Part shown: positions 45,596 through 60,982 of the stretch, piece after piece
Layout: every line of letters begins with the position of its first letter
How positions within the stretch are numbered: the stretch's first letter is position 1
Source of the DNA: Escherichia phage phi92
Sequence record: NC_023693.1
Length of the DNA: 64,000 nt
Reading direction: 5' to 3' (one strand)
Notes under the pieces: generated by a model
What the model was told of the DNA's origin: nothing
Database searches by the model: none
Seen by the model: the letters and a program-made list of their open reading frames with translations, nothing else
Program-made: the position numbers and the translations under genes

Positions 45596-47755
45596 ATGAA
45601 ACAGGCTATTTTTACTGTAACTCGAAATACGAGAGTAAATGCCAGTTCATTCAGCTATAAGACCGTCGATGGAACGGCGGTCGCTGGTAGAGATTATGTA
45701 GCTAAACAGGGAACAGTAACGTTCCCTTCTGATGCAGATTCTGCTACTGTGGTGGTTGATGTATATGAACGTCCGGCAAACTCTTTAGATCTTTATTTTA
45801 CTCTTGAGATTACTAGCATAAGTCAAAATAACATGATGATCAATGAAGAAATTCGTTGTGTTATTACGACTAATCAATCGAATACAACCCCGCTAACTTG
45901 GCCTGTTGTGAAGTCTAGAATGTTTGATCCTAAGTTTTGGACAATAGATTCTCAATCAACAGAAAGTTGTTCTATTATCTCTAATGGTGATTCTTTCACA
46001 GCAAGAATGGTTAATAGGACAGTGGCTGGTCTTGCTGGGATTATTTGGTCAACTTACGATAAATATGATCACAAAGGATTAGGCTACCAAGAACATTCTG
46101 ACTTAAGTAAAGAGAAACTTTGGTTTAAAATGGAACTTAGTCAAGGTGTTCCTGGATTAAAAGAAGAAAAATTAATACCATCCTTAACAGTGACACTGAA
46201 GGATGAAACAGTTCATTATGTATCTCTAAACTTTTATGCAGAAGAAGTTTCAGAAGATGGTAAGACAGCAACAATCAAACTAGATTTCTCAAATTTAAAA
46301 TCTGGGCCAGAAAATGATATTGTTGTTGACACTACACAGATAGATAATATGTTCTTCTCCTTGATCTCCGCAAGGTATCAAGAAATTGAAGATGTTATAC
46401 CTGTAGACAATATGGATCTTTCCTTTAAGTTTACCATACTAGAGCCTGATACTGGTTACAGTATGATGAATATGGGTAATTTAAATGTTCCGGCGCACAC
46501 CATAAGAATGTGTACATCTTATGATGATATGTATAACCTAACCCCGGAGCGAGTTATTTCTAATACCTATAGATTAGGTTATAGGGATATGATTAACCAT
46601 TATAATGGTATGTCACACTATTATCAATTCAGTTGGGATGCTGGCTCTAATAAATGGGCTTTGAACAGAACAGAATATTTAAACCCAGCAACAGAAGCCT
46701 GGTTTGATAATTTCCACGCTAATGCAAAAGCTATGGGCTACACAGTAATGAACTCCTTAAGTTTTGAACTTATGAGTACAGTGTGTCCTGTAGAATGGGT
46801 ACAACATACTTGGAATGATGATCTGGCTGCTACAGGTTATGAGCCACCAAGTTATGTTTTATCTCCTTCAATTGATGAAGGGATGAATTATTTACAAGGT
46901 GTAATAAATAAGATAGCTTCTATATCCGCTGCTAATGATCTTCCGGTTATTATTCAGGTTGGTGAACCGTGGTGGTGGTATAACACAGCTACCAATCTAC
47001 CGTGTATTTATGATTATACAACCAAAGTTGCATTTAATAATGAAACTGGATTATATGCACAAGATGTTGGTACAGTTAAAAATTATAAAACTGGTACACC
47101 ATATGATGAATATTATGCATTCCTATCTAAAACATTAGGACTGCGTGTTGCTAAATTTGCAACAGATACCAGATTAGCATACCCTGGAGCGAAAGTTACA
47201 TTGTTACCATTTGTACCATCCATCTTAGGTAATGGTATGATGGAGTTTGTTAACTTCCCTAAAGATTATTATATTCCAGAAAACTTTGACTTTTATTGTT
47301 CAGAATGTTATGATTGGTTGTTGGAAGGTAAGATGGAAAGATCTTTTGACGCTATCACAATACCTAATGAGCAACTAGGTTTTAGTTATGATAAGATACA
47401 TTATCTTGCAGGGTTTGTTCCAGATGCAACTCTAGCACCATTATATGGCTTTGATCCTGAATCAAACTATAGGACATATTTGTGGAAAATGATTATAGGT
47501 AATATTGTATTGAATGACCAGAAGTTTGTTGGTTTATATCAATACATATGGGCTTATCCACAAATAATGCATGATTCAATAACTGTTCTTAATTCAAAAT
47601 CCCAAGTTTTTTATATGGGTAATGTGCCTTTGAATTGCTATTTGCAAGATATCACTCTTAAACAGGTAAATGTTACGATTGCTACTATAAGCGGAATTAC
47701 ACTAGCCACTAAATCTGGAGAAGATTTAGTAACAACACAAAAATTTTATATATAG
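45596..47755 (+). CDS. large tail-associated protein (719 aa)
   Basis: long ORF in tail-fibre region. Confidence 0.4.
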   Translation: MKQAIFTVTRNTRVNASSFSYKTVDGTAVAGRDYVAKQGTVTFPSDADSATVVVDVYERPANSLDLYFTLEITSISQNNMMINEEIRCVITTNQSNTTPLTWPVVKSRMFDPKFWTIDSQSTESCSIISNGDSFTARMVNRTVAGLAGIIWSTYDKYDHKGLGYQEHSDLSKEKLWFKMELSQGVPGLKEEKLIPSLTVTLKDETVHYVSLNFYAEEVSEDGKTATIKLDFSNLKSGPENDIVVDTTQIDNMFFSLISARYQEIEDVIPVDNMDLSFKFTILEPDTGYSMMNMGNLNVPAHTIRMCTSYDDMYNLTPERVISNTYRLGYRDMINHYNGMSHYYQFSWDAGSNKWALNRTEYLNPATEAWFDNFHANAKAMGYTVMNSLSFELMSTVCPVEWVQHTWNDDLAATGYEPPSYVLSPSIDEGMNYLQGVINKIASISAANDLPVIIQVGEPWWWYNTATNLPCIYDYTTKVAFNNETGLYAQDVGTVKNYKTGTPYDEYYAFLSKTLGLRVAKFATDTRLAYPGAKVTLLPFVPSILGNGMMEFVNFPKDYYIPENFDFYCSECYDWLLEGKMERSFDAITIPNEQLGFSYDKIHYLAGFVPDATLAPLYGFDPESNYRTYLWKMIIGNIVLNDQKFVGLYQYIWAYPQIMHDSITVLNSKSQVFYMGNVPLNCYLQDITLKQVNVTIATISGITLATKSGEDLVTTQKFYI

Positions 47756-47763
47756 GAGTAAAA

Positions 47764-50520
47764 ATGTCAACTACAATTACTAATTTACCCGAAACATCAA
47801 AAGTTAATAGTTCTGATTACCTGGTTTTAGACCAGCCTGATAAGACTGTTAAAAGCACAGTTTCCAACTTTCTTGCTGACACTGGGGTGGTTTTAGCCAC
47901 CCAGCTAAAAGATACTTCTGGTGCTACCAAGTATCCAGAACTTCAAATGTCGCGCTGGAGAGATGAAGGTGATCCTAGAGGATGGGGAGCAGTAGGTGAC
48001 GGAGCAACAGACGATACTAATGCTATAACACAGCTTCTTGCTGCTATGCCTGATGGATGGATTATTGATGGGCGTAATCTCACTTTCAAGGTTACAACAC
48101 TACCAGATATAAGCAAGTTTAAAAACGCTGCTTTTGTTTACGAGCGTATTGTTGGACAACCCCTTACTTATGTATCTGAAGGTTTCTTCGATGGAAATCT
48201 GACAAAGATTACGGATACACCATTTTACAATGCTTGGACGCAAGATAAGACGTTTGTTTATGATAATGTTATATATGCACCATTTATGGCTGGCGAACGT
48301 CATGGTGTACAAAACCTCCATGTAGCGTGGGTTAAATCAGGAGATGATGGACAAACTTGGTCTATGCCAGAATGGTTAACTCCAATTCATCCTGATTATA
48401 CAGCAGACAAAGTTAACTATCATTGTATGAGTATGGGTGTATGTGGTAATCGCCTATATGCAGTCATCGAAACCCGTTACTTATCTAACATGCGATTGAA
48501 GAAAGCAGAACTTTGGTCACGTCCAATGCCTTATTATAGAAGGCCAACTGGAGGTATAACAATTAGTTCTGGGTCTACTACGGCGACGATTGTTTTAAAA
48601 AAGCATGGTCTTAAAGTTGGAGATGCTGTTAACTTTTCCAATTCGGGTGCAACTGGTGTATCTGGAAATATGACTGTTGCATCTGTAATTAACAAGGATA
48701 CATTTACGGTTACATTAGCAAGGGCTGCCACATCTAATATAGATAATACAGGAACTACTTGGCATTTTGGAACACGTTTCTGGGATAGCCCTTGGGAAAT
48801 TACAGAATTACCAGATGTTGCCTATTCTACTAATGCAGACTTATGTGTTACAGAAACCCATAGTTTTACAGTTATAGATGATGATAATTACACTTTTGCT
48901 GTGGGTTATCACAATGGTGATATTTCCCCAAGAAGATTAGGTATTTTGTACTTCAATAATGCTTACTCTGACCCAAGTTCTTTTACTCGTAGAACAATTA
49001 GTCAAGAATATGCTGACAATGCAGCAGAACCCTGCATTAAATATTACGATGGAATTTTATATTTAACTACCAGGGGTACTTCAACTTCTGCTGCTGGTTC
49101 TACATTAGCAATGAGTGCTGACCTTGGAGAAAACTGGAATTACTTAAGATTTCCTAACAACGTTCATCATACAAACCTACCATTTGCAAAAGTTGGTGAT
49201 TATCTTTATATCTTTGGTACAGAACGTTCATTTGGAGAGTGGGAAGGGCAAGAACTAGATAATAGATATAAAGGTACGTATCCTCGAACGTTTATGTGCA
49301 AGATTAATGTATCTTCATGGCCTGTATCTTTATCCAATGTTCAATGGTTTAATATCACTGATCAGATATATCAAGGGCATATTGTTAATTCTGCATGTGG
49401 CGTTGGTTCGGTATGTGTTAAAGATGGCTGGTTATATTATATCTTTGGAGGTGAAGATTTCTTATCTCCTTGGTCTATCGGAGATAATAGTAAAAAATTA
49501 TGGTACAAGCATGATGGTCATCCAGCCGATTTATATAGCTATAGACTAAAGATTACCGAACATGATTTTGTATCACGTGACTTCAAATATGGAGCTACGC
49601 CAAACCGTACATTGCCTGTATCTATGGGTACAGATGGGGTAAGGCATGTCTCAGCCCCTGTAACTTTTGATAATGATGTACAGATGTACTCTTTAACAGT
49701 TACTGGTCTTGAGCATGATGGGACACAACAATCTGCCGTTAGAGTAAAATTAGATGGTGATTATGGGGTTATTGCAAAAAATATCCCAATAAAAAATCCT
49801 TCTGAACAGCGACTAATCTTATGTGGAGGAGAAACTCCTTACACTACTGATGGATCGTTATTACAATTGTATGGTTCAAACCATACGTATCCAAACAGAG
49901 CAATTTTATATGCCCCAGGAGGAGCATATACACAAAATAATTTCATGCCGTACTTAGATGGACAAGTTTCATTAGGTGGTGCATCTAATAGATGGTCAGA
50001 AGTGTATGCATCTACAGGAACCATTAATACTTCAGACGGAACATTAAAAACTAAACCTACAGAGATTGAAGATATTTTACTGAAAGCATGGGAAGATATT
50101 CATGTAATCTCTTACCAATGGCTTAGTGCTGTCGCGGAGAAAGGAGATTCTGCGCGTATTCATTTTGGTGTTATCGCTCAAGATGTAAGAGATATTCTGA
50201 TTAATTATGGTTTAATGGATGAAAATAGTACTGATTGTAAGTATGCTTTTCTATGTTATGATGAATACCCTGCTATGTATGATAGTGTTGTTACGGGACA
50301 AAAAGAAATCACTTTACTTGACGATGAAGGAAATAATGTAATTGATGAAGAAGGTAATCCAGTAACAATTGTAGAAGATGTTGTAGAAACTATCGAAGTA
50401 ATTCCAGCAGGATCGCGATGGGGTATCCGCGCTGACCAAATGTTTTTTATTGAGATGGCTTATCAACGTAAAAAGTTAAAAGCTCTTGAAGAAAGACTTG
50501 CAACCCTAGAAAGTAAATAA
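47764..50520 (+). CDS. tailspike/tail fibre with beta-helix-type motif and C-terminal self-cleaving chaperone domain
   Basis: AVGDGATDDTNAI motif; C-terminal SDGTLKTKPTEIEDILLKAWEDIHVISYQW matches the intramolecular chaperone (S74-type) signature; followed by terminator. Confidence 0.7.
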   Translation: MSTTITNLPETSKVNSSDYLVLDQPDKTVKSTVSNFLADTGVVLATQLKDTSGATKYPELQMSRWRDEGDPRGWGAVGDGATDDTNAITQLLAAMPDGWIIDGRNLTFKVTTLPDISKFKNAAFVYERIVGQPLTYVSEGFFDGNLTKITDTPFYNAWTQDKTFVYDNVIYAPFMAGERHGVQNLHVAWVKSGDDGQTWSMPEWLTPIHPDYTADKVNYHCMSMGVCGNRLYAVIETRYLSNMRLKKAELWSRPMPYYRRPTGGITISSGSTTATIVLKKHGLKVGDAVNFSNSGATGVSGNMTVASVINKDTFTVTLARAATSNIDNTGTTWHFGTRFWDSPWEITELPDVAYSTNADLCVTETHSFTVIDDDNYTFAVGYHNGDISPRRLGILYFNNAYSDPSSFTRRTISQEYADNAAEPCIKYYDGILYLTTRGTSTSAAGSTLAMSADLGENWNYLRFPNNVHHTNLPFAKVGDYLYIFGTERSFGEWEGQELDNRYKGTYPRTFMCKINVSSWPVSLSNVQWFNITDQIYQGHIVNSACGVGSVCVKDGWLYYIFGGEDFLSPWSIGDNSKKLWYKHDGHPADLYSYRLKITEHDFVSRDFKYGATPNRTLPVSMGTDGVRHVSAPVTFDNDVQMYSLTVTGLEHDGTQQSAVRVKLDGDYGVIAKNIPIKNPSEQRLILCGGETPYTTDGSLLQLYGSNHTYPNRAILYAPGGAYTQNNFMPYLDGQVSLGGASNRWSEVYASTGTINTSDGTLKTKPTEIEDILLKAWEDIHVISYQWLSAVAEKGDSARIHFGVIAQDVRDILINYGLMDENSTDCKYAFLCYDEYPAMYDSVVTGQKEITLLDDEGNNVIDEEGNPVTIVEDVVETIEVIPAGSRWGIRADQMFFIEMAYQRKKLKALEERLATLESK

Positions 50521-50522
50521 TA

Positions 50523-50547
50523 CCGCTTCGGCGGTATTTCAATCTTT
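50523..50547 (+). terminator. terminator-like hairpin
   Basis: ACCGC-TTCG-GCGGT followed by T-rich tract. Confidence 0.55.
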
Positions 50548-50568
50548 ATATCTCGCTTAGAGGTACTC

Positions 50569-50835
50569 ATGGTTAAAGAGAAAAATGGTTTTAAAAAATT
50601 TATTCGAGGTATGTTTTGTACATATCCTGATAATAAAGTCAGTTCTACTAAAGTTTGGAATGCTATTGGTATGATTGTTATGTCCAGTATGTTTATTTAT
50701 TTGGGAATTGATAAAGAAATTCCTGAATGGATGGGCTGGGCTTTTGTTTTTATGATCACACCATCCAGATTAATGAAGAATTTAATAGATTTACGTTGGG
50801 GCAGATCACCTGCCCCTGATAAGGAGGATAACTAA
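50569..50835 (+). CDS. small membrane protein with two transmembrane helices (holin-like topology)
   Basis: hydrophobic segments VWNAIGMIVMSSMFIYLG and WMGWAFVFMITP. Confidence 0.35.
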   Translation: MVKEKNGFKKFIRGMFCTYPDNKVSSTKVWNAIGMIVMSSMFIYLGIDKEIPEWMGWAFVFMITPSRLMKNLIDLRWGRSPAPDKEDN

Positions 50836-52322
50836 TGGCAGATTATGGTTTAACAGATGCTGGTTTTGTCATTCCAACGTTTGATGATATTTTAAATAAT
50901 TATATGACAGCATTGAAAAACACTTTCGGTGCAGATACAGCTACATCCGAAGATACTGTCTTTGGTCAACTGTTTCGTATTATTGCATATACAGATTACA
51001 CCCTTTGGGAAGGTATGCAAGGTGTTTACAATACCCAAACCTTAGATGGTGCAGAAGGTATTTACCTTGATGAAATTTTCTCTAAAAGGGGTTTTTATCG
51101 TAAAGCTGCTTCTGCTGGTAGTGGTTATGCTTATGTTAAATCTAACAATAAGGCAGCTTGGACTTATGAACTAAGCACAGATGTTTATTTTAATGCCGAT
51201 AACGATTTGACATATTATGTCAGTGCACCAACAATGTTGAATGCTAAGATTGGAGCATATACCATTTCTAAAGCAAACGCAACAGCTTCTGGTGAAACTT
51301 CTATTACTTTCTACATTCAAAGTGCTATTGATGGTGGTCTTAACAGTAAAACACTAAGTCCTAGCAATACAAACTTTATTTTAGATCTCACGAATTTCAT
51401 TAAAGCTAACGTATCAACAACAGATCGTGCTTTAGTATGGAATGATGCTAGTAATGTTTACATGGGTTATAATCCAGAAGATAATGTTAATCCAATAGGT
51501 CTAGTAACACCAGTGAAATTTTATGCATCTATTGCAATTGGTACAAAATGGAGTGAAATTCCAGTTACGTGTTCAGACGTTGGTTATAATCCAGTAGGTA
51601 CAGAAAGTATTACAGGTATTTCTTCAACGTTTACAGGCTTTTTAGATACAGGTAACTTCTATCCATTCTCTCCAGGTACAGATGTTGAAACAGATGCAGA
51701 ATTCCGCTCTCGTTTCAATGATAATATGGATGAAGCTAATGCTGCTACTCGTGCTGCTATTGTTAAAGCTCTGCTACTGACAGATGGTGTGACAAAGGTT
51801 AAGATTTATGATAACCCTACATTACATGATCAAGAACATGCTCCAGCTATGACATTCCAGACTATTGTGTATGGTGGTACAGCAGAAGAAGTTGCACAGG
51901 TTATTTATAATACTAAGCCTATTAACACCCTAACCTATGGTACAACAGCAATTACTATTGTAACAGAAGATGGCGGTCAAGAAGTAATTCGTTTTTCTCC
52001 TGGTGACAATGCTGAATATTCACTTAAACTAGTATATCAAACTGGCAATGGTAGTGTGTTAAGTACAACAGAAAGAGAAAATATTGTTTCTGCTCTTTCA
52101 AATCTACAGGCTTATTTTGAGTTAGGGTCAACAGTAACTAACGATCAGATAAAAGGTGTAATTTATTCTGCACTTGCGTTCGGACGCTTGACTTCTCTCC
52201 GTGTTTATGTTAAACTTAATACTGAGGATGACAGTAAATATAATGAGGGAGATATCACTCCAGCGTACAATGTTGTACCATCCTTTGACCTTGATAATAT
52301 TTCCTACGAGTACGGAGTCTAA
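50835..52322 (+). CDS. tail/baseplate structural protein (495 aa)
   Basis: ORF in array. Confidence 0.35.
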   Translation: MADYGLTDAGFVIPTFDDILNNYMTALKNTFGADTATSEDTVFGQLFRIIAYTDYTLWEGMQGVYNTQTLDGAEGIYLDEIFSKRGFYRKAASAGSGYAYVKSNNKAAWTYELSTDVYFNADNDLTYYVSAPTMLNAKIGAYTISKANATASGETSITFYIQSAIDGGLNSKTLSPSNTNFILDLTNFIKANVSTTDRALVWNDASNVYMGYNPEDNVNPIGLVTPVKFYASIAIGTKWSEIPVTCSDVGYNPVGTESITGISSTFTGFLDTGNFYPFSPGTDVETDAEFRSRFNDNMDEANAATRAAIVKALLLTDGVTKVKIYDNPTLHDQEHAPAMTFQTIVYGGTAEEVAQVIYNTKPINTLTYGTTAITIVTEDGGQEVIRFSPGDNAEYSLKLVYQTGNGSVLSTTERENIVSALSNLQAYFELGSTVTNDQIKGVIYSALAFGRLTSLRVYVKLNTEDDSKYNEGDITPAYNVVPSFDLDNISYEYGV

Positions 52323-52324
52323 AA

Positions 52325-52954
52325 ATGGCAGTGAGTGTTGACCATGTGACAACGTGGGATAGTATCAATGAAGATGTTAAAGACCTACTGATTGAAGATT
52401 TTAAATCTTCTCCGAACATTGTCAAACTACTCTATATCATTTCTAGCGAAAAACAAAAGATAGATCAGGCAATGATCTATCTTGCCAAACACCGCTTAAT
52501 CTCTACTGCAACTGGTAAGTATTTAGATCTTATTGGTGAAGAGATGGGGATGGAAAGAAATGGTGCTACAGATGAAGAGTATCGTACAATATTAAAAATC
52601 AGGGCTTATCGTGTTGCGTCTTCTGGTACGCGAGATGATATCATTGATATGTTCGCTCGTTTTACAGGAACAGAAAAAGAAACGATCAATACATACGTTG
52701 GATTAAATAAAACATTCGACGTATTCTTTTATAATTTGTGTCTACAATCCGATCAGGCAGTAGCACAGTTACTTAACGTTTTCCCGATCCTAAGTAGTTA
52801 TCGCTTAGGTGCGAAAGCGGGTGCAGCCTTTGGTTTCACTTCCTATTATGCCACAACTCCACCTCATGGTATAGGTGGTTTAGGTTCTCTTTACACAGAG
52901 GCTGAAGGAGATGATACAGGGCGAATGACTATGCTGATAGCTCAAATAGAATAA
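52325..52954 (+). CDS. tail structural protein (209 aa)
   Basis: ORF in array. Confidence 0.35.
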   Translation: MAVSVDHVTTWDSINEDVKDLLIEDFKSSPNIVKLLYIISSEKQKIDQAMIYLAKHRLISTATGKYLDLIGEEMGMERNGATDEEYRTILKIRAYRVASSGTRDDIIDMFARFTGTEKETINTYVGLNKTFDVFFYNLCLQSDQAVAQLLNVFPILSSYRLGAKAGAAFGFTSYYATTPPHGIGGLGSLYTEAEGDDTGRMTMLIAQIE

Positions 52955-52967
52955 GGAGTTACTCTTA

Positions 52968-53948
52968 ATGGCAAAGCCACAATACTACCCTGACTGGGCG
53001 ACACAAACAGTAACCCTCCCAGGAACGGGAAACACAAACAAGATTAGACCAAAAGAAACCATCCGTAATGTTGGTATGGACTTTGGTCAGATTATGACTT
53101 GTGAAGAAATGAACTGGATCTTAAACAATATTGGGTCTTGGATTCGCTATATGCAAGATGAATTCTTCCCAACATTGCCTACTACATATCTTCCTATAGT
53201 CGGTACTAAAATTACAATGGCAGGTGATGCTACAGGTGAAGTTACATGGAATGGTAATGCTGCTGTAACATTATCTATTCAAGTAGTAGATAACAGCCAT
53301 AATCACTTATCAGCTAACATTACAGACGCAACATCAAACCAAGTTGTAGGGAATGTCCTTGTTAAGCGTGATAATGGTGGTGCTATCTATGCAGGTGATA
53401 TTTACACTTGTGGTACAGGTGCTACAGATCCTGCAACATTATTCTTTAGAAACTACAACGGACAAACAGTAGGTAATATGTCCTCTGAACCAGGTGCAGG
53501 TGGTCAACTCTATATTTATAGAATAAACCCATCAACTGGAGGAACATCTTGTGCAGTCCGTTTATATGATGCAGGTTATGTTTTAATAGACAATCCTCGT
53601 TCTAATTCTGGTCAAGATACTGGTAATGGTAATGCTCTTGTAAGATTAGATTATCTTAACTCAAGACTAAACTCATTGCAAAGTACACTGCAAAATAATA
53701 TTAACAACGTTAATAGCAACTTGCAAGGCCAAATTAATAACATTAACAATAGAGTTTCTTCTGTTGTGTCTTCTATCCGTCTAGGTACACGTATTAAAGC
53801 TGGTGTGTCTGAGTCTCGTTTCTATGCTGGTCACGTGATCACAGGTTGGGGTTTTGGTGACAAGAAAGAACTTCGTGGTGCTTGGTATTGGTCTGCTCCG
53901 CTACAATATTACATTAATGGTAGGTGGATAACAGTAACCAACGTTTAG
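52968..53948 (+). CDS. tail fibre protein with Asn-rich coiled-coil segment
   Basis: NSRLNSLQSTLQNNINNVNSNLQGQINNINNRVSS heptad-like segment; AAGGAG RBS. Confidence 0.45.
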   Translation: MAKPQYYPDWATQTVTLPGTGNTNKIRPKETIRNVGMDFGQIMTCEEMNWILNNIGSWIRYMQDEFFPTLPTTYLPIVGTKITMAGDATGEVTWNGNAAVTLSIQVVDNSHNHLSANITDATSNQVVGNVLVKRDNGGAIYAGDIYTCGTGATDPATLFFRNYNGQTVGNMSSEPGAGGQLYIYRINPSTGGTSCAVRLYDAGYVLIDNPRSNSGQDTGNGNALVRLDYLNSRLNSLQSTLQNNINNVNSNLQGQINNINNRVSSVVSSIRLGTRIKAGVSESRFYAGHVITGWGFGDKKELRGAWYWSAPLQYYINGRWITVTNV

Positions 53949-53960
53949 TAAGGAGAACAC

Positions 53961-54512
53961 ATGAAAAAAGATGTTATTTACACTGGCTTTGAACTATATC
54001 AACCAGAATTGACAGAAGAAAATGTCATCTATCTTTCAATAGGTGCTGGTTTTCTTAAAGATAAAGATGGTAATGATTGGTACGAAATTCAGAAATATTT
54101 ATCCAAAAATTACCCTGATGCCTATTTCTTAACTCTAGATCACAACAATGTAGTTGTTGCAGCTACGAAAGATGTTTCTACATATTTTCCCGCTGGTCTT
54201 ACTGTTCTTGTAACATACAATGTTCCAGATAAAATAGAAGAAGAAAGCAACCTAGGGTCGTGGAGATATGACAATGGTAAGTTTATTTCTCATAATGGGT
54301 TTGCAATAGAAGATGCCAACCTTAAGATGGAAAAAGAATTAACTTGGGCCACAAATCAAATATCTGCAATTCAAGATTTAGAGGAATTACAAGGTTTATC
54401 TGAAGAACAAAAAGATTGGTTAGGAAAAGTTAAACTATATCGTGCAACACTGATTCAAATTAACGTTGAAGATGCACCTAATATAACTTGGCCTACAAGA
54501 CCTAAGAAATAG
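53961..54512 (+). CDS. hypothetical protein, possible tail fibre assembly factor
   Basis: position immediately after fibre gene; no motif. Confidence 0.3.
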   Translation: MKKDVIYTGFELYQPELTEENVIYLSIGAGFLKDKDGNDWYEIQKYLSKNYPDAYFLTLDHNNVVVAATKDVSTYFPAGLTVLVTYNVPDKIEEESNLGSWRYDNGKFISHNGFAIEDANLKMEKELTWATNQISAIQDLEELQGLSEEQKDWLGKVKLYRATLIQINVEDAPNITWPTRPKK

Positions 54513-54521
54513 GGGTAATGT

Positions 54522-54863
54522 ATGGAGCTAACAGAAGTATGGGATATCGCTAAAGAGGCGATTATCCCTCTTATTGGTGTAATCTGGGTGGTCTTCAAAC
54601 AGAAGATAGATGATATAGCAAGTGATTTGGATAAAATGGAAGACAAATACCGCGAACTAGAAAAGAAGTTGGTGTTTGTTGAATCCACTTATGCTACCAA
54701 AGCAGAACTTGCTCAAATGCTTAACCAGATCAACTCTACATTAATGGCAAATAATACTGCCTTAGAACAGAAGATTGAAAAAATAATGGATTTAAAAAAT
54801 GCTCCTGTTCAATTAATGCTAGAGGAGATTACGAAGCGCACACAAAGTAAGGACAAAAATTAA
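54522..54863 (+). CDS. hypothetical protein with N-terminal hydrophobic helix and coiled coil
   Basis: ORF only. Confidence 0.3.
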   Translation: MELTEVWDIAKEAIIPLIGVIWVVFKQKIDDIASDLDKMEDKYRELEKKLVFVESTYATKAELAQMLNQINSTLMANNTALEQKIEKIMDLKNAPVQLMLEEITKRTQSKDKN

Positions 54864-57277
54864 TGGCGAATTTTCCAACATATCCTGCTACGACACTAGA
54901 ACAAGGTGTTGATCTGGTTATATTCTCGTCTAACCAGATGCATGATGTTATTAATGGGGATGCTACAGCAACTGTAGAAACCGAAACAGGTTTAATACCT
55001 ACACTGCGTAAAGCACTTGTTGATAACTTCTTCTTTAAGAGTCCTGTTGCTTGGTCAGCAGGATCAACTGAAACTGTATTTAACCAGTTACGTTATTTTG
55101 AAAACGGTATCTTGAGTGGGTACTATTATGCCCCATCTGCCACTACTGCGAACCCTGTACCTATGCAGGGCACACCTGTAGGGGACAGTAACTGGACTCT
55201 GTACGCTCTTAAAACTGAACAGTTAGCTTCAGATGTGTATCCTTGGTATTTTAAAGGTGCTACAGGATATGAAACAGAAATCAGTCCTCCTTATATCTTT
55301 GATAATGCTATTGTCACCATTAACGGTGTAATTCAGATTCAAGGTGAAGCATTTACTATCAAAGATAGTAAAATTATTCTGGCAGAACCATTAGGTTTAG
55401 ATCCGTCTACTGGTCTACCTAACAAATTGTTTGCTTTTATTGGTAAAACAACAGCCTCTACTTCTTACGTAGAGAAAAACCTTTTGTCATCTACCACTGG
55501 TGCAGCAATGGTTGGTCTTCCATCTGGAGGCAACCTGTTACAAGCTCAATACTTTGTAACGCCTGAGCAGTTTGGTGCAATTGGTGATGGAGTTACCGAT
55601 GATACTCAAGCAATTTTAAAAACTATTACTTTCGCTAACACGAATAACATTCAAGTACGTGCAGATAAGAATTATAGATTCACAAGCTCAATTGCTATGT
55701 CTGGTGTTCGTTGGTATGGTGGTACATTCACTGGTAACGGTGGAACAATGATTTCTACTGTGTCCTGTTGGATGGAAAACGTTCGCTTTGAAAAATGTTA
55801 TGTTAAGATGTTAGGTGGTGATTGCCGATTCTATCGTAATATCTTCTCCAACGCAACATCTACAGCAGCATTCTTAATGCAAGCAATGACAAGTGAAGGT
55901 ACGTTGGACTTCAGTTACAACGAAATGTATGGTTGTAAATATGCGATCCTGCAACAAGGTACTGGAGAAGTAATGACCTATGGGCGTTACTCTAACAACT
56001 ATATTCACGATATCAAAGGTGATGCTATTGAACTTAACGTAGTTCAAAAACACTACACTGAAGGTTTGATTATCGAGAATAACCACATTGCTAACGTAGA
56101 TGCTTCTGGACAAGGTGCAAACTGGGGTATTGGTATTGGTGTAGCAGGTAGTGGCCCATATGGTGTTGATGTTCCTGATTCACAATATGTACGTAACTTC
56201 AGTATCGTTGGGAATAGGGTTTACAATTGCCGTCAATGTCTACACGTTGAAATGGGTAAAAACTTCACGATACGTGATAATGAAGTTTATCCTAACACAG
56301 CAGTTTCAACAGGTACAGGTTTAACTACTTGTGGTGTTGCATTATACGGATGCCAAGATTTTGAAGTTGATGGTTTAACTGGTTATCTGCTTAATGATCC
56401 ATCTGTTTCAACACGCATGGTCTTTATTGACTGGGGTGTTAACAATGGTAGATATGCGGGGCCACCAATTAACTTTACAATTAAGAATTTGGATATTCCA
56501 GAATCTTCAATTGAGATTGCAACATCTGGATCAGATGCCTGGGAAAACTCTACAATTGTTAGTAATATCAATTGTAATGTTTTTAAATGGCGTGGGCTAC
56601 CATCTAGCTCTACCTTTAATAATATTCGTTGCCGTAGTATTGACTTTATTGGTCAACACGGAAGCGGAGAAGGAAGTGGTGGCGGTTTCTATACTCGCAG
56701 CCAATTCACGTATATGAAGTGGGTAGGATGTACAGCACTTAGCGGAGATGAAACAACAGTTTCTTTTGCTAAAATCTACACTGATCGTTGCGATCAGGTT
56801 GGAAATAACTTTGGTGTTCCAACTGCTGTTGATGGTACAGGTCATCGTGGGCCAGTTTTAACTACTATTTCTGAACAATATTTTACAGCTTATGATGAAT
56901 TCCCAGGTGGGCGTGAATTCCCTACTGGAACAGTTATTCATTGTGCAAGCGGTAAAAAACATGTTGTTACAGTAGGTGGTGCTTTCTTTAGTGACAACGA
57001 GAAAATAAAAGCAACTGTTACAGGTCAAACCTATCTACAGTCTAATGCTTTAAACTGGGCTAGTAATGGCTACGCTAAAGCAGCAGGTACTAAGATTGTT
57101 ATTCCAGGTGCAGGTGCAAATGGCGGCGATCTTGTGACAACTATAGCACGTGCTACATACGTGACAAATAGTTTGTACACAATAGATATTGCAGATCCAA
57201 TTGTAACACCTACAGCAGAGAATACACAAATTAAAGCTCTGAATCCTGTTACTTTTGTTACTGTCAATAATGCTTAA
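54863..57277 (+). CDS. tailspike with right-handed beta-helix (pectate-lyase-like) domain
   Basis: GAIGDGVTDDTQAI motif typical of beta-helix tailspike depolymerases; 804 aa; terminator follows. Confidence 0.65.
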   Translation: MANFPTYPATTLEQGVDLVIFSSNQMHDVINGDATATVETETGLIPTLRKALVDNFFFKSPVAWSAGSTETVFNQLRYFENGILSGYYYAPSATTANPVPMQGTPVGDSNWTLYALKTEQLASDVYPWYFKGATGYETEISPPYIFDNAIVTINGVIQIQGEAFTIKDSKIILAEPLGLDPSTGLPNKLFAFIGKTTASTSYVEKNLLSSTTGAAMVGLPSGGNLLQAQYFVTPEQFGAIGDGVTDDTQAILKTITFANTNNIQVRADKNYRFTSSIAMSGVRWYGGTFTGNGGTMISTVSCWMENVRFEKCYVKMLGGDCRFYRNIFSNATSTAAFLMQAMTSEGTLDFSYNEMYGCKYAILQQGTGEVMTYGRYSNNYIHDIKGDAIELNVVQKHYTEGLIIENNHIANVDASGQGANWGIGIGVAGSGPYGVDVPDSQYVRNFSIVGNRVYNCRQCLHVEMGKNFTIRDNEVYPNTAVSTGTGLTTCGVALYGCQDFEVDGLTGYLLNDPSVSTRMVFIDWGVNNGRYAGPPINFTIKNLDIPESSIEIATSGSDAWENSTIVSNINCNVFKWRGLPSSSTFNNIRCRSIDFIGQHGSGEGSGGGFYTRSQFTYMKWVGCTALSGDETTVSFAKIYTDRCDQVGNNFGVPTAVDGTGHRGPVLTTISEQYFTAYDEFPGGREFPTGTVIHCASGKKHVVTVGGAFFSDNEKIKATVTGQTYLQSNALNWASNGYAKAAGTKIVIPGAGANGGDLVTTIARATYVTNSLYTIDIADPIVTPTAENTQIKALNPVTFVTVNNA

Positions 57278-57280
57278 TTA

Positions 57281-57303
57281 AAAAGGGGCGAAAGCCCCTT
57301 TAT
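57281..57303 (+). terminator. rho-independent terminator
   Basis: AGGGGC-GAAA-GCCCCT followed by TTAT. Confidence 0.65.
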
Positions 57304-57318
57304 AAAAGGAGTAGTAAA

Positions 57319-59280
57319 GTGATTTTAACACGTCCAAATAGTGCCATTGCAGACATGGTAGAGTCTCGCTATAGAAAGCGTAGAAGTTTTGCAAGTGGTT
57401 TTACCTTAAGAGATGCTCGTGAAGCATTGCTCTTTGAAACTGACGGTAACTACTATCAGTGGAAAGGTTCTCTACCTAAAGTTGTACCTGCTAACTCTAC
57501 TCCTACATCTACTGGAGGGATTTCAGATACAGCTTGGAAAAATGTGGGTAATGCAGATGACATTGCTCAAATAGAATCAGAATTAGATGCTATTGAAGCT
57601 GAAATTGAAGATCTTAGAGAATCCATCCCAGAAGCTGGTAAATCAGCTTACCAAATTGCCGTAGACAATGGTTTCCAAGGTACTGAGACACAGTGGTTGG
57701 CTTCTTTAAAAGGTGATCCAGGTGCTCCATTAAAGCTACTAGGGACGCTATCTAATACCAACCAATTACCTACAACTGGAAACAATGCAGGGGATGCATG
57801 GATTGTAGGCGAGAATATGTATGCTTGGGATGGTACTGCTTGGAGAAAAGTAAACTCACAGGGGCCAGAAGGTAAATCTGCTTATGAAGTATGGCTTGCA
57901 GCAGGAAACGAAGGTACAGAACTAGATTATCTTGCCGCAATTAAAGGTGATAAAGGGGAGCCTGGCCCAGAGGGGCCACAAGGTGTGCCAGGTAATAATG
58001 CTAATGGTTTTGATTACCAAGGCGCAGCTAATTCCGTTTCAGATCTTCCTTCTGCATCTCCTGGAAACACATCTCAAGCATGGAGTATTGGTACATATCT
58101 ATACGTGTCAAACGGTGTAGAATGGATCAATATGGGCGCTATAGTGGGGCCAAAAGGAGATAAAGGCGACAAAGGAGATAAGGGTAACACTGGTGATTCA
58201 GCTTATCAAGTCTGGTTAAATGCTGGTAACGTTGGTACTATTGACGAATATATTGCCTCTCTGAAAGGAGAAAAAGGTGATAAGGGAGACAAGGGTGATC
58301 AAGGTGCACAGGGTATACAAGGCTTGACGGGGCCAACTGGTGCAGGGTTGACCATTATTGACATTCTGACTAGCACTTCTGAACTACCACAAACTGGAGA
58401 AGATGGTGATGGTTATCTGATCAATAATGAACTTTGGGTCTGGTTGCAAGGAGCCACAGAGTGGACAAATGTTGGTCGTTTAGCTGGTACTCCAATCACT
58501 GCAAAAGGATACGTTGCGTCTGCAAGTGCACTTCCTCCTACAGCCAATTACGGTGATGCTTATCTGACGGAAGATACAGGTCATCTTTACATTTACACCT
58601 ATGATGAACAAACTCAAACTGCTGAATATGTAGATATGGGTAGTTTGAAAGGTGATAAGGGTGAAAAAGGTGACGCTGGTACTAACGGTACAGACGGTGC
58701 AACTTGGATTGTTAAAACAACAGATCCAATCTCTAGTGATGGTAAACAAGGTGATTATGCCTTTAATATCTCCACTGGCGAGGTGTTCTTAAAAACATCT
58801 GCAACTATCTGGACTTCTCAAGGTACACTACCTAGTATCACAGATGCACCTAGTGATGGTAAGACTTATGCTCGTAAAGATGGAGCATGGGAAGAACTCA
58901 CTAATTCTGTAGATGGTCAAGATATAGTTCCAACAAAAGTAACAACTAATTTTATAGAGGTTACAGCATATACTAACAATTCTGTTACAGGGGACTGGAC
59001 ACCTCCAGGAACACATAACATGAATGTGTTGAATCTTACTGGTAACTCTACTATAAAAGCATGGCCTGGTGTCGAAGATAGCACAAAACCTAAACCATTC
59101 TCTGCAATAGTTTATCTTATCCAAGATGCCACTGGAGGTCGTACTGTTACTTTAGATCCATCTTACAAAGTAATTGGTTCCAGTGATATTAATACAGATC
59201 CTAACGGAGTAACAATACTACAACTAACATATTGTGGTGTTGGCGATTACGTGGATGCTATTGTTGCTAAACGCACATAA
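57319..59280 (+). CDS. tail fibre with collagen-like Gly-X-Y repeats
   Basis: runs such as GDKGEPGPEGPQGVPG and GEKGDKGDKGDQGAQGIQGLTGPTGAG. Confidence 0.65.
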   Translation: MILTRPNSAIADMVESRYRKRRSFASGFTLRDAREALLFETDGNYYQWKGSLPKVVPANSTPTSTGGISDTAWKNVGNADDIAQIESELDAIEAEIEDLRESIPEAGKSAYQIAVDNGFQGTETQWLASLKGDPGAPLKLLGTLSNTNQLPTTGNNAGDAWIVGENMYAWDGTAWRKVNSQGPEGKSAYEVWLAAGNEGTELDYLAAIKGDKGEPGPEGPQGVPGNNANGFDYQGAANSVSDLPSASPGNTSQAWSIGTYLYVSNGVEWINMGAIVGPKGDKGDKGDKGNTGDSAYQVWLNAGNVGTIDEYIASLKGEKGDKGDKGDQGAQGIQGLTGPTGAGLTIIDILTSTSELPQTGEDGDGYLINNELWVWLQGATEWTNVGRLAGTPITAKGYVASASALPPTANYGDAYLTEDTGHLYIYTYDEQTQTAEYVDMGSLKGDKGEKGDAGTNGTDGATWIVKTTDPISSDGKQGDYAFNISTGEVFLKTSATIWTSQGTLPSITDAPSDGKTYARKDGAWEELTNSVDGQDIVPTKVTTNFIEVTAYTNNSVTGDWTPPGTHNMNVLNLTGNSTIKAWPGVEDSTKPKPFSAIVYLIQDATGGRTVTLDPSYKVIGSSDINTDPNGVTILQLTYCGVGDYVDAIVAKRT

Positions 59281-59282
59281 TC

Positions 59283-59306
59283 AAAGCCCCTTCGGGGGCT
59301 TATTAT
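59283..59306 (+). terminator. rho-independent terminator
   Basis: AGCCCC-TTCG-GGGGCT followed by T-rich tract. Confidence 0.65.
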
Positions 59307-59319
59307 TTAAGGAGATTAA

Positions 59320-59928
59320 ATGTATCCTATTCCTTTATTTATGTCAACAACATCAGCTTCAGTAGTAACAGCTACATCTATAACTACTTCCTCTATTGGT
59401 ATTGCAATAGTTGGTGGTAAAAAACAACTGACATACACAGTTACACCGGAAGATGGTGCATTATTTGATATAGCTTTTTCATCTTCAGATAATACCAAAA
59501 TGGTTATAGATAATAGTGGTATGATGGAGTTTGTTGCCGAAGGTGGTTTTGATGCAATAATGACAGCTAAAAATAATTTAGGTGCTGTCTTAACTGATCA
59601 ATCTGGTGGCTATGCTTCAGAATTAAGTGTGTACACTGAAAGTCTATCGGCTATGGATGTAGGCACTACTCAACAGTTGGTTGCTACAATCAGTCCAGAA
59701 GGTGCTAAAGACCTTCCAGATATGGTAATTACATACACCACAACAGATCCAGAAGTAGCTACTGTAAGCCCTACAGGGTTAATAACTGCTCTTAAAGATG
59801 GCGGTTGCCGTATAGGTTGTACTGCAACGTATCAAGGAACAGTTGTGGCCTCTGATAGGTCTTATTTAGGTGTTAATGCTATTCCTGTTATTTCTAATGT
59901 AACAGCCGTATCTTTAATAACTCAATAG
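59320..59928 (+). CDS. Ig-like (Big_2-type) domain protein
   Basis: two Ig-like repeats (VATVSPTGLITALKDGG pattern), Ser/Thr-rich N-terminus. Confidence 0.5.
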   Translation: MYPIPLFMSTTSASVVTATSITTSSIGIAIVGGKKQLTYTVTPEDGALFDIAFSSSDNTKMVIDNSGMMEFVAEGGFDAIMTAKNNLGAVLTDQSGGYASELSVYTESLSAMDVGTTQQLVATISPEGAKDLPDMVITYTTTDPEVATVSPTGLITALKDGGCRIGCTATYQGTVVASDRSYLGVNAIPVISNVTAVSLITQ

Positions 59929-60982
59929 CTACAGATGATTCGTTCATTAAAGAAGTTATTGTCTTTGCTGGACAAGATAACGTAAATGCACACTTTACAG
60001 AACTATCTGGTGCAAATAAAGCAGCAATGAGTAGCACAACAGCCCGTAATGCATATGCTACGCAACGTGGTTTAGCAAATGCTGAAGTTCTTCCGTGTTA
60101 AATACAGCTTCTGGATCATCAGCAGCAGATAAATATGCTGACGATAAAGCTGGAACAGGTACACCAGATAACTACTGGTATGATCTGGATAACACAGCAG
60201 ATGGGCCATGCTTAACTAACTTTATCACTAAAGTCACACCTTATGCAAGTAAGGTTAAAGCAATTATTTGGGGACAAGGTGAAAATGATGCTGTATCAGC
60301 ATCTTCGACTGTTGCAGGTAGGTACAGTAACACTACACGTTACCATGATGCTACGATAGCTATCTTTGATAAGATGCGTACAATAGTTCCTGCTTCTCAA
60401 GCAAAAATTGTTTGGCAGATCCTAGGACGTTCTTATTTATATGGTGTAGAAGTTAATGGTGTGGATTGGCAGAAGTACAGAAATGTACAAAGAACCATCT
60501 CTACAGCACGTGATGATGTTATCATTGGTTCTTGGGTAGATGGTGCTGAACGTTACAGTGGTTATGTTTATGAAGAAGGTATTGATGGTCGTATCCATTA
60601 TATTTCTTCTGTATACCAAACAGCAGCTACAAAACTTGCTAAATCAGCAGCAGACGGTACAGATTTAACATCAACGTCACCTGTTTGGGTTGATATGTCT
60701 GTTCCAACAGGAGGAGCCGCTGTAAGACAAGCTAACCAAGATGTAATTATCTCTTGGGAACCAGCAGGATATACTAAACATTACTTCCGAAATGTAAACG
60801 TCCTCACAGCAGCAATTCTTACAGAACAAACCCTGGATACTAACACTTACACATTTACTTATGCAGATCAGGTTGAACAATATGGATTTGCAGCAGGTAC
60901 AACAGTGTTTGATGTTGCACACTATGATGCTGATAATGACGTGTTATCACCTCTTGTCAGATTTACAGTCAATGTTACATAA
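59898..60982 (+). pseudogene. SGNH/SASA-like esterase gene split across two reading frames (frameshifted or recoded)
   Basis: open frame 59898-60098 with no ATG near its start encodes VFAGQDNVNAH (GQSN-like block); continues in another frame from 60095 with IIWGQGENDA; the preceding Ig-like ORF ends at 59928 in a third frame. Confidence 0.4.

What the first reader, a model, noticed from the sequence alone, without database searches (positions are those of the whole stretch)
47764..59280. Receptor-binding repertoire with two beta-helix tailspikes, a collagen-like fibre and a self-cleaving chaperone domain
Two proteins carry the GDG-TDDT motif of beta-helix depolymerase-type tailspikes (47764-50520 and 54863-57277). 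The first ends in an intramolecular chaperone domain (SDGTLKTKPTEIEDILLKAWEDIHVISYQW) expected to be removed by autoproteolysis. A third protein has long Gly-X-Y collagen-like runs. Multiple enzymatic spikes suggest recognition of more than one surface polysaccharide.
Basis: partly seen in the sequence, partly recalled or inferred. Interest (0 to 1): 0.45.

Follow-up and report, generated by a model that had tools for sequence, protein, structure and literature searches.

The report
Phage phi92 tail spikes and fibres

Summary
The window is phage phi92 (Justusliebigvirus). The three proteins match GenBank Phi92_gp143, gp150 and gp151 residue for residue. gp143 and gp150 also match phi92 crystal structures 4HIZ and 6E0V at 100%.

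All sequence observations hold:
- GDGxTDDT occurs exactly twice in the six-frame translation, at gp143 aa78 and gp150 aa241.
- The quoted chaperone string starts at gp143 S757.
- gp151 has Gly-X-Y runs, but short ones of 6, 6, 9 and 6 triplets.

- gp150 is a right-handed parallel beta-helix tailspike, the published colanic-acid depolymerase.
- gp143 is not one. It is an endosialidase with a beta-propeller catalytic domain, an inserted beta-barrel and a triple-beta-helix stalk.
- The gp143 C-terminal self-cleaving chaperone is real. The Ser757/Lys762 dyad is conserved, and a RefSeq mature peptide "endoN92-CTD" begins at S757.
- gp151 is a non-enzymatic modular fibre.

The span also contains baseplate wedge genes, the short tail fibre and its chaperone. 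It omits gp141 and gp142 upstream.

This has been known since 2012, so interest is low. The one open point is virion placement of gp150 and gp151, because fibre II is still unassigned.

The parts
42711..45587 (+). gp141, a 958-aa tail protein and putative glycosidase fibre. It lies outside the finding's coordinates but belongs to the same repertoire.
   Evidence: PHROG 2871 'tail protein', E 0. No Pfam or PDB sequence match. Listed as a glycosidase of phi92 in PMC5380687. The orthologue in PaulScherrer is annotated as a lateral tail fibre.
45596..47755 (+). gp142, a 719-aa tail protein with a Calx-beta domain, an NCTSP N-terminal domain and a TIM barrel.
   Evidence: Pfam TIM-barrel_NCTSP E 1.2e-81, NCTSP_N E 4.1e-21, Calx-beta E 1.7e-9. 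PDB 9LC0 Gp64 and non-contractile tail sheath.
47764..50520 (+). gp143, the phi92 endosialidase (endoN92), a polysialic-acid depolymerase spike of 918 aa.
   Evidence: Exact match to CBY99572.1 Phi92_gp143. aa75-756 are 100% identical to PDB 4HIZ. Five endosialidase Pfam domains.
47764..47985 (+). gp143 N-terminal particle-attachment module (aa1-74). The first ~54 aa are conserved in relatives that carry a different receptor-binding body.
   Evidence: blastp against PaulScherrer bas60_0027: aa1-54 are 91% identical, then no similarity. DNA synteny breaks at 47916 and resumes at 50595.
47989..48189 (+). gp143 End_N_terminal extension (aa76-142), which contains GDGATDDT at aa78-85.
   Evidence: Pfam PF12218 E 1.3e-33. 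Motif position.
48190..49554 (+). gp143 catalytic beta-propeller (aa143-597), with the beta-barrel inserted at aa256-338 (nt 48529-48777).
   Evidence: Pfam End_beta_propel E 4.5e-214 and End_beta_barrel E 1.8e-37.
49561..50031 (+). gp143 stalk (aa600-756, triple beta-helix region), ending at T756, the mature C-terminus.
   Evidence: Pfam End_tail_spike E 3.4e-63. The 4HIZ chain ends at T756.
50032..50517 (+). gp143 C-terminal intramolecular chaperone / Peptidase S74 domain (aa757-918), released by self-cleavage before S757.
   Evidence: Pfam Peptidase_S74 E 1.4e-12. Aligns with K1F 3GW6 at E 9.7e-64, with S757, K762 and R743 conserved. The RefSeq mature peptide endoN92-CTD YP_009019179.1 equals aa757-918.
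50569..50835 (+). gp144, a small membrane protein of 88 aa. Not a receptor-binding protein.
   Evidence: PHROG 1322 'membrane protein', E 4e-27.
50835..52954 (+). gp145 and gp146, the baseplate wedge proteins (50835-52322 and 52325-52954).
   Evidence: Pfam Baseplate_J E 4.5e-11 and DUF2612 E 3.5e-6. The gp145-gp146 wedge heterotrimers were modelled in the phi92 cryo-EM study PMC13450770.
52968..53948 (+). gp147, the short tail fibre (fibre III). Proposed in PMC13450770 to mediate irreversible adsorption.
   Evidence: PHROG 4465 'tail fiber protein', E 3e-109. The N-terminus resembles the phiTE short tail fibre 9CUY_c. Identified as fibre III in PMC13450770.
53961..54512 (+). gp148, the tail-fibre assembly chaperone.
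   Evidence: Pfam Caudo_TAP E 3.2e-11.
54863..57277 (+). gp150, the colanidase tailspike (colanic-acid depolymerase), 804 aa.
   Evidence: Exact match to CBY99579.1 Phi92_gp150. aa180-804 are 100% identical to PDB 6E0V/6E0W. PHROG 6117 'colanic acid degradation'.
54896..55240 (+). gp150 N-terminal anchor region (aa12-126), homologous to the baseplate-binding N-terminus of the phiTE long tail fibre.
   Evidence: PDB 9CUY_g residues 15-130, E 1.3e-18. The phiTE long tail fibre N-terminus binds wedge 2A and the sheath initiator (PMC11972413).
55580..56812 (+). gp150 right-handed parallel beta-helix body (about aa240-650). It starts with GDGVTDDT (aa241-248) and a capping helix.
   Evidence: AF2 model with pLDDT mostly above 90 over this range. 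Foldseek: 6E0V first, then only beta-helix tailspikes and enzymes.
56972..57238 (+). gp150 C-terminal Ig-like domain (aa704-792).
   Evidence: Pfam TSP_Ig-like E 8.1e-15.
57319..59280 (+). gp151, a modular collagen-like tail fibre of 653 aa in which no enzyme domain was detected.
   Evidence: Exact match to CBY99580.1 Phi92_gp151. Pfam Tail_spike_N and Collagen. AF2 and Foldseek.
57349..57549 (+). gp151 Tail_spike_N domain (aa11-77), the spike-to-spike docking type seen in CBA120 TSP1/TSP3/TSP4 and in G7C.
   Evidence: Pfam PF18668 E 3.4e-21. PDB sequence matches. Foldseek 4QNL, 6NW9 and 4OJ5.
57637..58488 (+). gp151 three tandem modules (aa107-390). Each has a G[KD]SAY helix pair ending in LKG, then a Gly-X-Y linker, then a small beta-hairpin domain.
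   Evidence: Module alignment at 36-38% identity. Gly-X-Y runs at nt 57946-57999, 58147-58200 and 58267-58347, with a fourth at 58651-58704. Secondary structure.
58966..59277 (+). gp151 C-terminal beta-sandwich domain (aa550-653), the presumed receptor-contact tip.
   Evidence: AF2 pLDDT 80-93 with all-beta secondary structure. PHROG 4549 C-terminus E 2e-38.
59320..60982 (+). A further tail-protein gene, broken in this genome into 59320-59928 (Big_2 domains) and 60095-60982.
   Evidence: PHROG 32204 matches both pieces, at profile positions 1-219 and 358-655. Eryne has one 628-aa gene here. The window has a 226-bp deletion near 59909 plus a 2-nt indel.

Best explanation
This is the host-adsorption gene cluster of Escherichia coli myophage phi92, the so-called 'Swiss army knife' of Justusliebigvirus.

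gp143 is a trimeric endosialidase. A short N-terminal module fixes it to the virion. A beta-propeller with an inserted beta-barrel cleaves polysialic-acid capsules (K1, K92). A triple-beta-helix stalk follows. A C-terminal chaperone domain (aa757-918) drives trimer folding and then cuts itself off between T756 and S757, using a Ser757/Lys762 dyad that becomes competent only in the folded trimer.

gp150 is a trimeric right-handed beta-helix tailspike that depolymerises colanic acid.

gp151 is a non-enzymatic fibre. It is built from a spike-docking N-terminal domain, a coiled coil, repeated modules with collagen-like linkers, and a C-terminal beta-sandwich tip.

Between these genes lie the wedge proteins gp145 and gp146, the short tail fibre gp147 and its chaperone gp148. 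Upstream lie two more putative glycosidase fibres, gp141 and gp142.

Shown here: sequence identity to the deposited phi92 proteins, the domain folds, conservation of the catalytic dyad, and the cleavage site implied by the deposited mature chains.

Taken from the literature: the enzymatic specificities and fibre positions.

Inferred: that gp151 docks on another spike, and that gp150 anchors directly on the wedge or sheath initiator.
For: - Exact-sequence look-up returns CBY99572.1, CBY99579.1 and CBY99580.1 (Phi92_gp143, gp150, gp151) on a 148,612-bp contig.
- gp143 and gp150 are 100% identical to PDB 4HIZ and 6E0V. The neighbouring central spike (window 40869-41606, gp138) matches PDB 3PQI 'gene product 138' and 21VQ 'Phi92_...' over its whole length at E about 1e-161.
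- gp143 matches all five endosialidase Pfam domains, including End_beta_propel at E 4.5e-214 and Peptidase_S74.
- The chaperone domain aligns with K1F 3GW6 at E 9.7e-64. S757 sits on the mutated Ser911 position, K762 on Lys916 and R743 on the conserved Arg, and the C-terminal helix is conserved. The mechanism is described in PMC4690869 and PMC3742443.
- The RefSeq mature peptide 'endoN92-CTD' is exactly aa757-918, and the 4HIZ chain ends at T756.
- The gp150 AF2 model (pLDDT 80.9) retrieves 6E0V, 'colanidase tailspike protein gp150 of Phage Phi92', and then only beta-helix proteins.
- Literature: gp143 hydrolyses alpha-2,8 and alpha-2,9 polysialic acid, and gp150 hydrolyses colanic acid (PMC13450770). 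PMC5380687 lists five phi92 receptor-binding proteins.
- For gp151, the only significant Foldseek structural matches (E <= 0.001) are to the N-terminal docking domain.
Against: Nothing contradicts the identification.

Limits:
- The phi92 genome record is not in the 'phages' BLAST collection. The best DNA hits are relatives at 96-99% identity.
- Schwarzer et al. 2012 and 2015 were not readable here. Their content is cited second-hand.
- The virion positions of gp150 and gp151 are unresolved. Fibre II was unassigned and the AF3 models fitted poorly (PMC13450770).
- Collagen triple-helix formation in gp151 cannot be assessed from a monomer model, where those segments have pLDDT below 50.
Confidence: 0.97

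Rival explanations
1. One reading: both GDGxTDDT proteins, including 47764-50520, are right-handed beta-helix depolymerase tailspikes.
For: The shared GDGxTDDT segment. A weak PHROG match of gp143 aa53-330 to a colanic-acid tailspike family (E 1.3e-7). The stalk of endosialidases is a (triple) beta-helix (PMC12632334).
Against: gp143 aa143-597 matches the endosialidase beta-propeller at E 4.5e-214. The protein is 100% identical to the phi92 endosialidase crystal structure 4HIZ. Similarity to gp150 is limited to 22 residues. The stalk is an intertwined triple beta-helix, not a single-chain parallel beta-helix, and it is not the catalytic domain.
Confidence: 0.02
2. gp151 is not a tail receptor-binding fibre. 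It is instead a decoration or head fibre, like the Pa223 capsid spike.
Against: The N-terminal Tail_spike_N domain (E 3.4e-21) is the tailspike-to-tailspike docking module of CBA120 and G7C. The gene sits inside the tail-fibre cluster directly after gp150. PHROG families are annotated 'tail fiber'. The Pa223 match has very low TM scores.
Confidence: 0.08
3. The Gly-X-Y runs of gp151 are only flexible glycine-rich linkers and do not form a collagen triple helix.
For: The runs are short, 6-9 triplets. They contain little proline (only the first run has several), and they are Lys/Asp-rich. The monomer AF2 model gives pLDDT below 50 there.
Against: The strict Gly periodicity is invariant across 20 homologues: G210 through G225 and G317 through G343 are invariant columns. 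Pfam Collagen scores above its cut-off. The protein is expected to be trimeric like other fibres, and bacterial and phage collagen-like segments are commonly charge-stabilised rather than hydroxyproline-stabilised (general knowledge).
Confidence: 0.15

Closest known systems
Phage phi92 adsorption apparatus (Schwarzer et al. 2012, J Virol 86:10384; gp141, gp142, gp143, gp150, gp151)
   Same: Identical. The three proteins of the finding are exact sequence matches to Phi92_gp143, gp150 and gp151. Gene order matches the published numbering.
   Different: Nothing differs. This is the same object.
Endosialidase endoNF of coliphage K1F (PDB 1V0E, 3GVL; chaperone 3GW6)
   Same: The domain order is the same: N-terminal extension, beta-propeller with inserted beta-barrel, triple-beta-helix stalk, then a self-cleaving C-terminal chaperone with a Ser/Lys dyad. 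Identity is reported as 54% (PMC13450770).
   Different: gp143 has a short myovirus-type anchor of about 74 aa instead of the long podovirus capsid-binding N-terminus. It has Asp758 where K1F has the essential Asn912. phi92 endoN is reported to cut both alpha-2,8 and alpha-2,9 linkages.
Right-handed parallel beta-helix tailspike depolymerases (P22, Sf6, HK620, CBA120 TSP2)
   Same: gp150 has the same fold and trimeric tailspike role. It starts with the GDGxTDDT cap motif typical of pectate-lyase-3-like domains.
   Different: The substrate is colanic acid. The N-terminal anchor is of the phiTE long-tail-fibre type. There is a C-terminal Ig-like domain. gp143 does not belong to this class.
Branched tailspike assemblies of CBA120 (TSP1-4) and G7C (gp63.1/gp66)
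   Same: gp151 carries the same N-terminal Tail_spike_N docking domain. This suggests attachment to another spike rather than to the baseplate.
   Different: gp151 has no enzymatic beta-helix body. It continues as a collagen-like modular fibre. The partner protein in phi92 is unknown.
Close relatives PaulScherrer, Eryne and VEcB (Justusliebigvirus), and phAPEC8, ESCO5 and nepoznato (Phapecoctavirus)
   Same: The locus is syntenic at 97-99% nucleotide identity. The endosialidase cassette is 96-97% identical in the Phapecoctavirus phages.
   Different: Most Justusliebigvirus relatives carry a different body on the gp143 anchor. They also have an intact gene where phi92 has the broken one at 59320-60982.

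Membership tests
Bacteriophage endosialidase (endo-N-acetylneuraminidase, GH58) | Beta-propeller catalytic domain with an inserted beta-barrel | tested here: met
   Pfam End_beta_propel E 4.5e-214 (aa143-597) and End_beta_barrel E 1.8e-37 (aa256-338). 100% identity to 4HIZ.
Bacteriophage endosialidase (endo-N-acetylneuraminidase, GH58) | Stalk (tail-spike) domain following the propeller | tested here: met
   Pfam End_tail_spike E 3.4e-63, aa600-756.
Bacteriophage endosialidase (endo-N-acetylneuraminidase, GH58) | Conservation of the catalytic residues defined in K1F (E581, R596, R647) | not tested
   I did not map the residues one by one. The protein is the biochemically characterised phi92 enzyme itself (PMC13450770 citing Schwarzer 2015).
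Bacteriophage endosialidase (endo-N-acetylneuraminidase, GH58) | Hydrolysis of polysialic acid | not testable with these tools
   Reported for this exact protein in the literature.
Peptidase S74 / C-terminal intramolecular chaperone (CIMCD, ICA domain) | Domain homology at the C-terminus, directly after a triple-beta-helix region | tested here: met
   Pfam Peptidase_S74 E 1.4e-12. K1F 3GW6 E 9.7e-64. Also GA-1 3GUD and T5 pb1 4UW8.
Peptidase S74 / C-terminal intramolecular chaperone (CIMCD, ICA domain) | Ser/Lys catalytic dyad with Lys five residues after Ser, plus an upstream Arg | tested here: met
   S757 and K762 (SDGTLK) align with the K1F Ser911 position (Ala in 3GW6) and Lys916. R743 in SNRWS aligns with SNRF. 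The roles of these residues are described in PMC4690869 and PMC3742443.
Peptidase S74 / C-terminal intramolecular chaperone (CIMCD, ICA domain) | Actual proteolytic release of the domain | tested here: inconclusive
   This cannot be assayed here. Database evidence agrees with release: the RefSeq mature peptide endoN92-CTD equals aa757-918, and the crystallised chain 4HIZ ends at T756.
Right-handed parallel beta-helix tailspike depolymerase | Single-chain parallel beta-helix as the catalytic body (gp150) | tested here: met
   AF2 model with regular short strands at aa242-646 and pLDDT mostly above 90. Foldseek returns 6E0V and then Sf6, HK620, CBA120 TSP2, AlgE4 and GH87. Homologue P0137 is named 'parallel beta helix pectate lyase-like'.
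Right-handed parallel beta-helix tailspike depolymerase | Single-chain parallel beta-helix as the catalytic body (gp143) | tested here: not met
   The catalytic body is a beta-propeller. Only the 22-residue GDGxTDDT segment is shared with gp150.
Collagen-like (Gly-X-Y) phage fibre | Uninterrupted Gly-X-Y repeats scoring above the Pfam Collagen threshold | tested here: met
   Four runs of 6-9 triplets. Pfam Collagen scores 33.2 bits against a cut-off of 27.2. The Gly positions are invariant in 20 homologues.
Collagen-like (Gly-X-Y) phage fibre | Formation of a trimeric collagen triple helix | not testable with these tools
   Only monomer prediction is available, and those segments have pLDDT below 50.
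Tail_spike_N (TSP1/gp66-type) docking domain carriers | N-terminal PF18668 domain | tested here: met
   gp151 aa11-77, E 3.4e-21. Foldseek matches to G7C gp63.1 (rmsd 1.0 A over 54 columns) and CBA120 TSP1/TSP3/TSP4.

The most novel reading that the evidence does not exclude
The still unassigned 'fibre II' of phi92, and the proximal arm of the L-shaped fibre I, may be a branched hetero-assembly rather than a single protein.

gp150 would be anchored directly on the wedge and sheath initiator through its aa12-126 module. That module is homologous (E 1e-18) to the 'rip-cord' baseplate anchor of the phiTE long tail fibre. gp151 would hang from another spike through its Tail_spike_N domain.

This would explain why no single AlphaFold3 model fitted the fibre II density in the 2026 cryo-EM study. 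It would also link a colanidase spike mechanically to the contraction trigger.
Probability: 0.3. Interest if true: 0.35.

Novelty: already known. Interest (0 to 1): 0.1.

Why it matters
The biology is important but established. phi92 is the textbook example of a myophage carrying several different spikes and fibres at once, which explains its host range across encapsulated and non-encapsulated E. coli and Salmonella. The endosialidase chaperone is the prototype of the self-cleaving ICA domain, later found in the human transcription factor MYRF.

For the scan, the value of this case is calibration:
- A sequence-only reader can recognise the repertoire and the chaperone.
- The GDGxTDDT motif alone misassigns the fold of an endosialidase.

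The only open question touched here is where gp150 and gp151 sit on the virion.

Tried and rejected
- I searched the 'phages' collection for the locus. phi92 itself is not there, and the best hits are relatives at 96-99% identity. Identity was therefore established through PDB chains and an exact protein look-up.
- I tried to read Schwarzer et al. 2012 (PMC3457257). It is not held.
- A BLASTP self-comparison of gp151 found no internal repeats at default settings. The three modules became visible only by motif search and MAFFT.
- Foldseek of the whole gp151 monomer model gave significant matches only for the N-terminal domain. The remaining hits, such as Pizza proteins and RMI, have E above 0.1 and were disregarded.
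- gp150 and gp151 share no domain.
- The sigma-70 promoter scan was no better than shuffles, 73 sites against 68.6 +/- 7.2, so no promoter is claimed.
- I considered whether the split downstream gene could be a programmed frameshift. I rejected this because a 226-bp deletion relative to Eryne explains it.

Full report
**What the window is.** The region lies in a long block of + strand structural genes (GC skew).

- An exact-sequence look-up shows that the three proteins named in the finding are, residue for residue, CBY99572.1 (Phi92_gp143), CBY99579.1 (Phi92_gp150) and CBY99580.1 (Phi92_gp151) of Escherichia phage phi92. The contig is 148,612 bp.
- Independently, aa75-756 of the first protein are 100% identical to PDB 4HIZ, the phi92 endosialidase.
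- aa180-804 of the second protein are 100% identical to PDB 6E0V/6E0W, phi92 gp150.
- The central spike gene upstream (40869-41606) matches PDB 3PQI 'gene product 138' and 21VQ 'Phi92_...' over its whole length at E about 1e-161.
- The phi92 record itself is missing from the BLAST collection. The best DNA hits there are Justusliebigvirus and Phapecoctavirus relatives at 96-99% identity.

- GDGATDDT starts at aa78 of gp143 (nt 47995) and GDGVTDDT at aa241 of gp150 (nt 55583). A six-frame scan of the whole window finds the pattern nowhere else.
- The quoted string SDGTLKTKPTEIEDILLKAWEDIHVISYQW starts at aa757 of gp143 (nt 50032).
- gp151 has four uninterrupted Gly-X-Y runs of 6, 6, 9 and 6 triplets. 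It passes the Pfam Collagen threshold, 33.2 bits against 27.2. 'Long' is an overstatement.

**gp143 (47764-50520).** Pfam finds the complete endosialidase architecture:

- End_N_terminal at aa76-142
- End_beta_propel at aa143-597, E 4.5e-214
- End_beta_barrel inserted at aa256-338
- End_tail_spike at aa600-756
- Peptidase_S74 at aa757-816

The catalytic domain is therefore a beta-propeller, not a parallel beta-helix. The only beta-helix is the intertwined triple-beta-helix stalk, as described for K1F (PMC12632334).

The GDGxTDDT motif lies in the short N-terminal extension. Similarity to gp150 is confined to 22 residues (12/22 identical). The motif is a shared cap-like segment and does not predict the catalytic fold.

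**The chaperone.** The C-terminal 239 residues align with the K1F stalk-plus-chaperone crystal structure 3GW6 at E 9.7e-64.

- S757 falls on the Ser911 position, which is Ala in that mutant structure.
- K762 falls on Lys916.
- R743 (SNRWS) falls on the conserved Arg.
- The HFGVIAQ motif and the terminal helix (YQRKKLKALEERLATLE) are conserved.
- Asp758 replaces the K1F Asn912.

The mechanism is described in PMC4690869 and PMC3742443. A Ser/Lys dyad is made competent only when an Arg from a neighbouring chain of the correctly folded triple beta-helix completes the oxyanion site.

For phi92 itself, RefSeq carries a mature peptide 'endoN92-CTD' (YP_009019179.1) that is exactly aa757-918. The crystallised chain ends at T756.

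**gp150 (54863-57277).**

- An AlphaFold2 model built on 28 homologues has pLDDT 80.9, mostly above 90 from aa240 to about aa650. It shows the regular short-strand pattern of a beta-helix.
- Foldseek returns 6E0V, 'Apo crystal structure of the colanidase tailspike protein gp150 of Phage Phi92', followed only by right-handed parallel beta-helix proteins. These include the Sf6, HK620 and CBA120 tailspikes, AlgE4 and GH87.
- The C-terminus has an Ig-like domain (Pfam TSP_Ig-like).
[quoted passage not shown] 2025).
- The N-terminal aa12-126 are homologous (E 1.3e-18) to the N-terminus of the phiTE long tail fibre (9CUY_g). In that phage this region binds wedge 2A and forms a helical 'rip-cord' bundle with the sheath initiator (PMC11972413).

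**gp151 (57319-59280).**

- The N-terminal aa11-77 are a Tail_spike_N domain (E 3.4e-21). This is the same module that links spikes to each other in CBA120 and G7C.
- A helix follows at aa79-102.
- Three tandem modules follow at aa107-390, 36-38% identical to one another. Each consists of a G[KD]SAY helix pair ending in LKG, a Gly-X-Y linker of variable length, and a small beta-hairpin domain.
- Further beta domains follow, including a weak foldon-like motif at aa504-529 (Fibritin_C 19.5 bits, below the cut-off of 21).
- The protein ends in a confident C-terminal beta-sandwich at aa550-653.
- No enzyme fold is detectable.
- The glycine positions are invariant in 20 homologues, which argues that the triplet periodicity is functional.
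- The family is large and common in big myophages.

**Surroundings.** The span given in the finding also contains:

- gp144, a small membrane protein
- gp145 and gp146, the wedge proteins
- gp147, the short tail fibre (fibre III in the 2026 cryo-EM study)
- gp148, a Caudo_TAP chaperone
- gp149

These assignments rest.

Immediately upstream lie gp141 (958 aa, no Pfam or PDB sequence match) and gp142 (Calx-beta plus NCTSP TIM barrel). A review lists both as phi92 glycosidases.

Comparison with PaulScherrer shows 97.5-98.6% synteny everywhere except 47916-50594. Only the first ~54 aa of gp143 are shared there, and the endosialidase body is a swapped cassette. The same cassette occurs at 96-97% identity in Phapecoctavirus phages.

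**Comparison with what is known, and novelty.**

- The multivalent adsorption apparatus of phi92 was published in 2012 (cited).
- The endosialidase structure was published in 2015.
- The gp150 structure was deposited in 2019.
- Whole-virion cryo-EM followed in 2026.

The finding is therefore already known.

It is right about the repertoire, the chaperone, the gp150 beta-helix and the collagen-like fibre. It is wrong about the fold class of gp143.

**What remains open.** In the 2026 study fibre II could not be assigned, and no single predicted model fitted the density. Two homologies seen here suggest a branched arrangement:

- the gp150 N-terminus resembles the phiTE baseplate anchor
- the gp151 N-terminus resembles a spike-docking domain

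This is inference only and needs multimer modelling or better maps.

Noticed in passing
window 59320-60982: A tail-protein gene that is a single 628-aa ORF in phage Eryne (and longer in PaulScherrer) is broken here. A 226-bp deletion near 59909 plus a 2-nt indel leaves ORFs 59320-59928 (Big_2 domains) and 60095-60982, with a middle piece in a third frame. This could be a real pseudogene or a sequencing error in the phi92 record.
   Followed up: partly
window 47916-50594: This is the only block in the 42-61.5 kb region that is not syntenic with phage PaulScherrer. The first ~54 aa of gp143 are conserved and the endosialidase body is an exchanged cassette. The same cassette is shared at 96-97% nucleotide identity with Phapecoctavirus phages (phAPEC8, ESCO5, nepoznato).
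   Followed up: yes
window 54896-55240 (gp150 aa12-126) and 52971-53183 (gp147 aa2-72): These N-termini are homologous to those of the phiTE long and short tail fibres (PDB 9CUY chains g and c), which bind the baseplate wedge and sheath initiator. This suggests how gp150 and gp147 are anchored. Fibre II of phi92 is still unassigned in the 2026 cryo-EM paper.
   Followed up: partly
window 45596-47755: gp142 combines a Calx-beta domain with the N-terminal domain and TIM barrel of 'non-contractile tail sheath' proteins (Pfam PF23844 and PF23845; PDB 9LC0). That is an unusual pairing for a myophage fibre protein.
   Followed up: no
window 42711-45587: gp141 (958 aa) has no Pfam match and no PDB sequence match, despite being annotated in relatives as a fibre with several glycosidase domains.
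   Followed up: no
window 19625-22544: A cluster of 15 tRNA genes on the + strand. One of them (20508-20583) is reported by ARAGORN with an irregular two-base anticodon.
   Followed up: no
window 58828-58905 (gp151 aa504-529): A foldon-like motif, APSDGKTYARKDGAWEEL, resembles the T4 fibritin C-terminal trimerisation unit. Pfam Fibritin_C scores 19.5 bits, just below its cut-off. Similar hairpins recur in each gp151 module.
   Followed up: partly
window 60986-61009 and 59284-59301: A perfect bidirectional terminator-like hairpin sits at the convergent junction between the late + strand genes and the - strand genes. A GC-rich hairpin with a T-rich tail lies directly after gp151.
   Followed up: no
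window 61406-62137 (- strand): An ORF orthologous to a gene annotated as Dam-like N6-adenine methyltransferase in PaulScherrer. In PaulScherrer the DNA polymerase gene further on contains an intein; the equivalent position lies beyond the window end.
   Followed up: no
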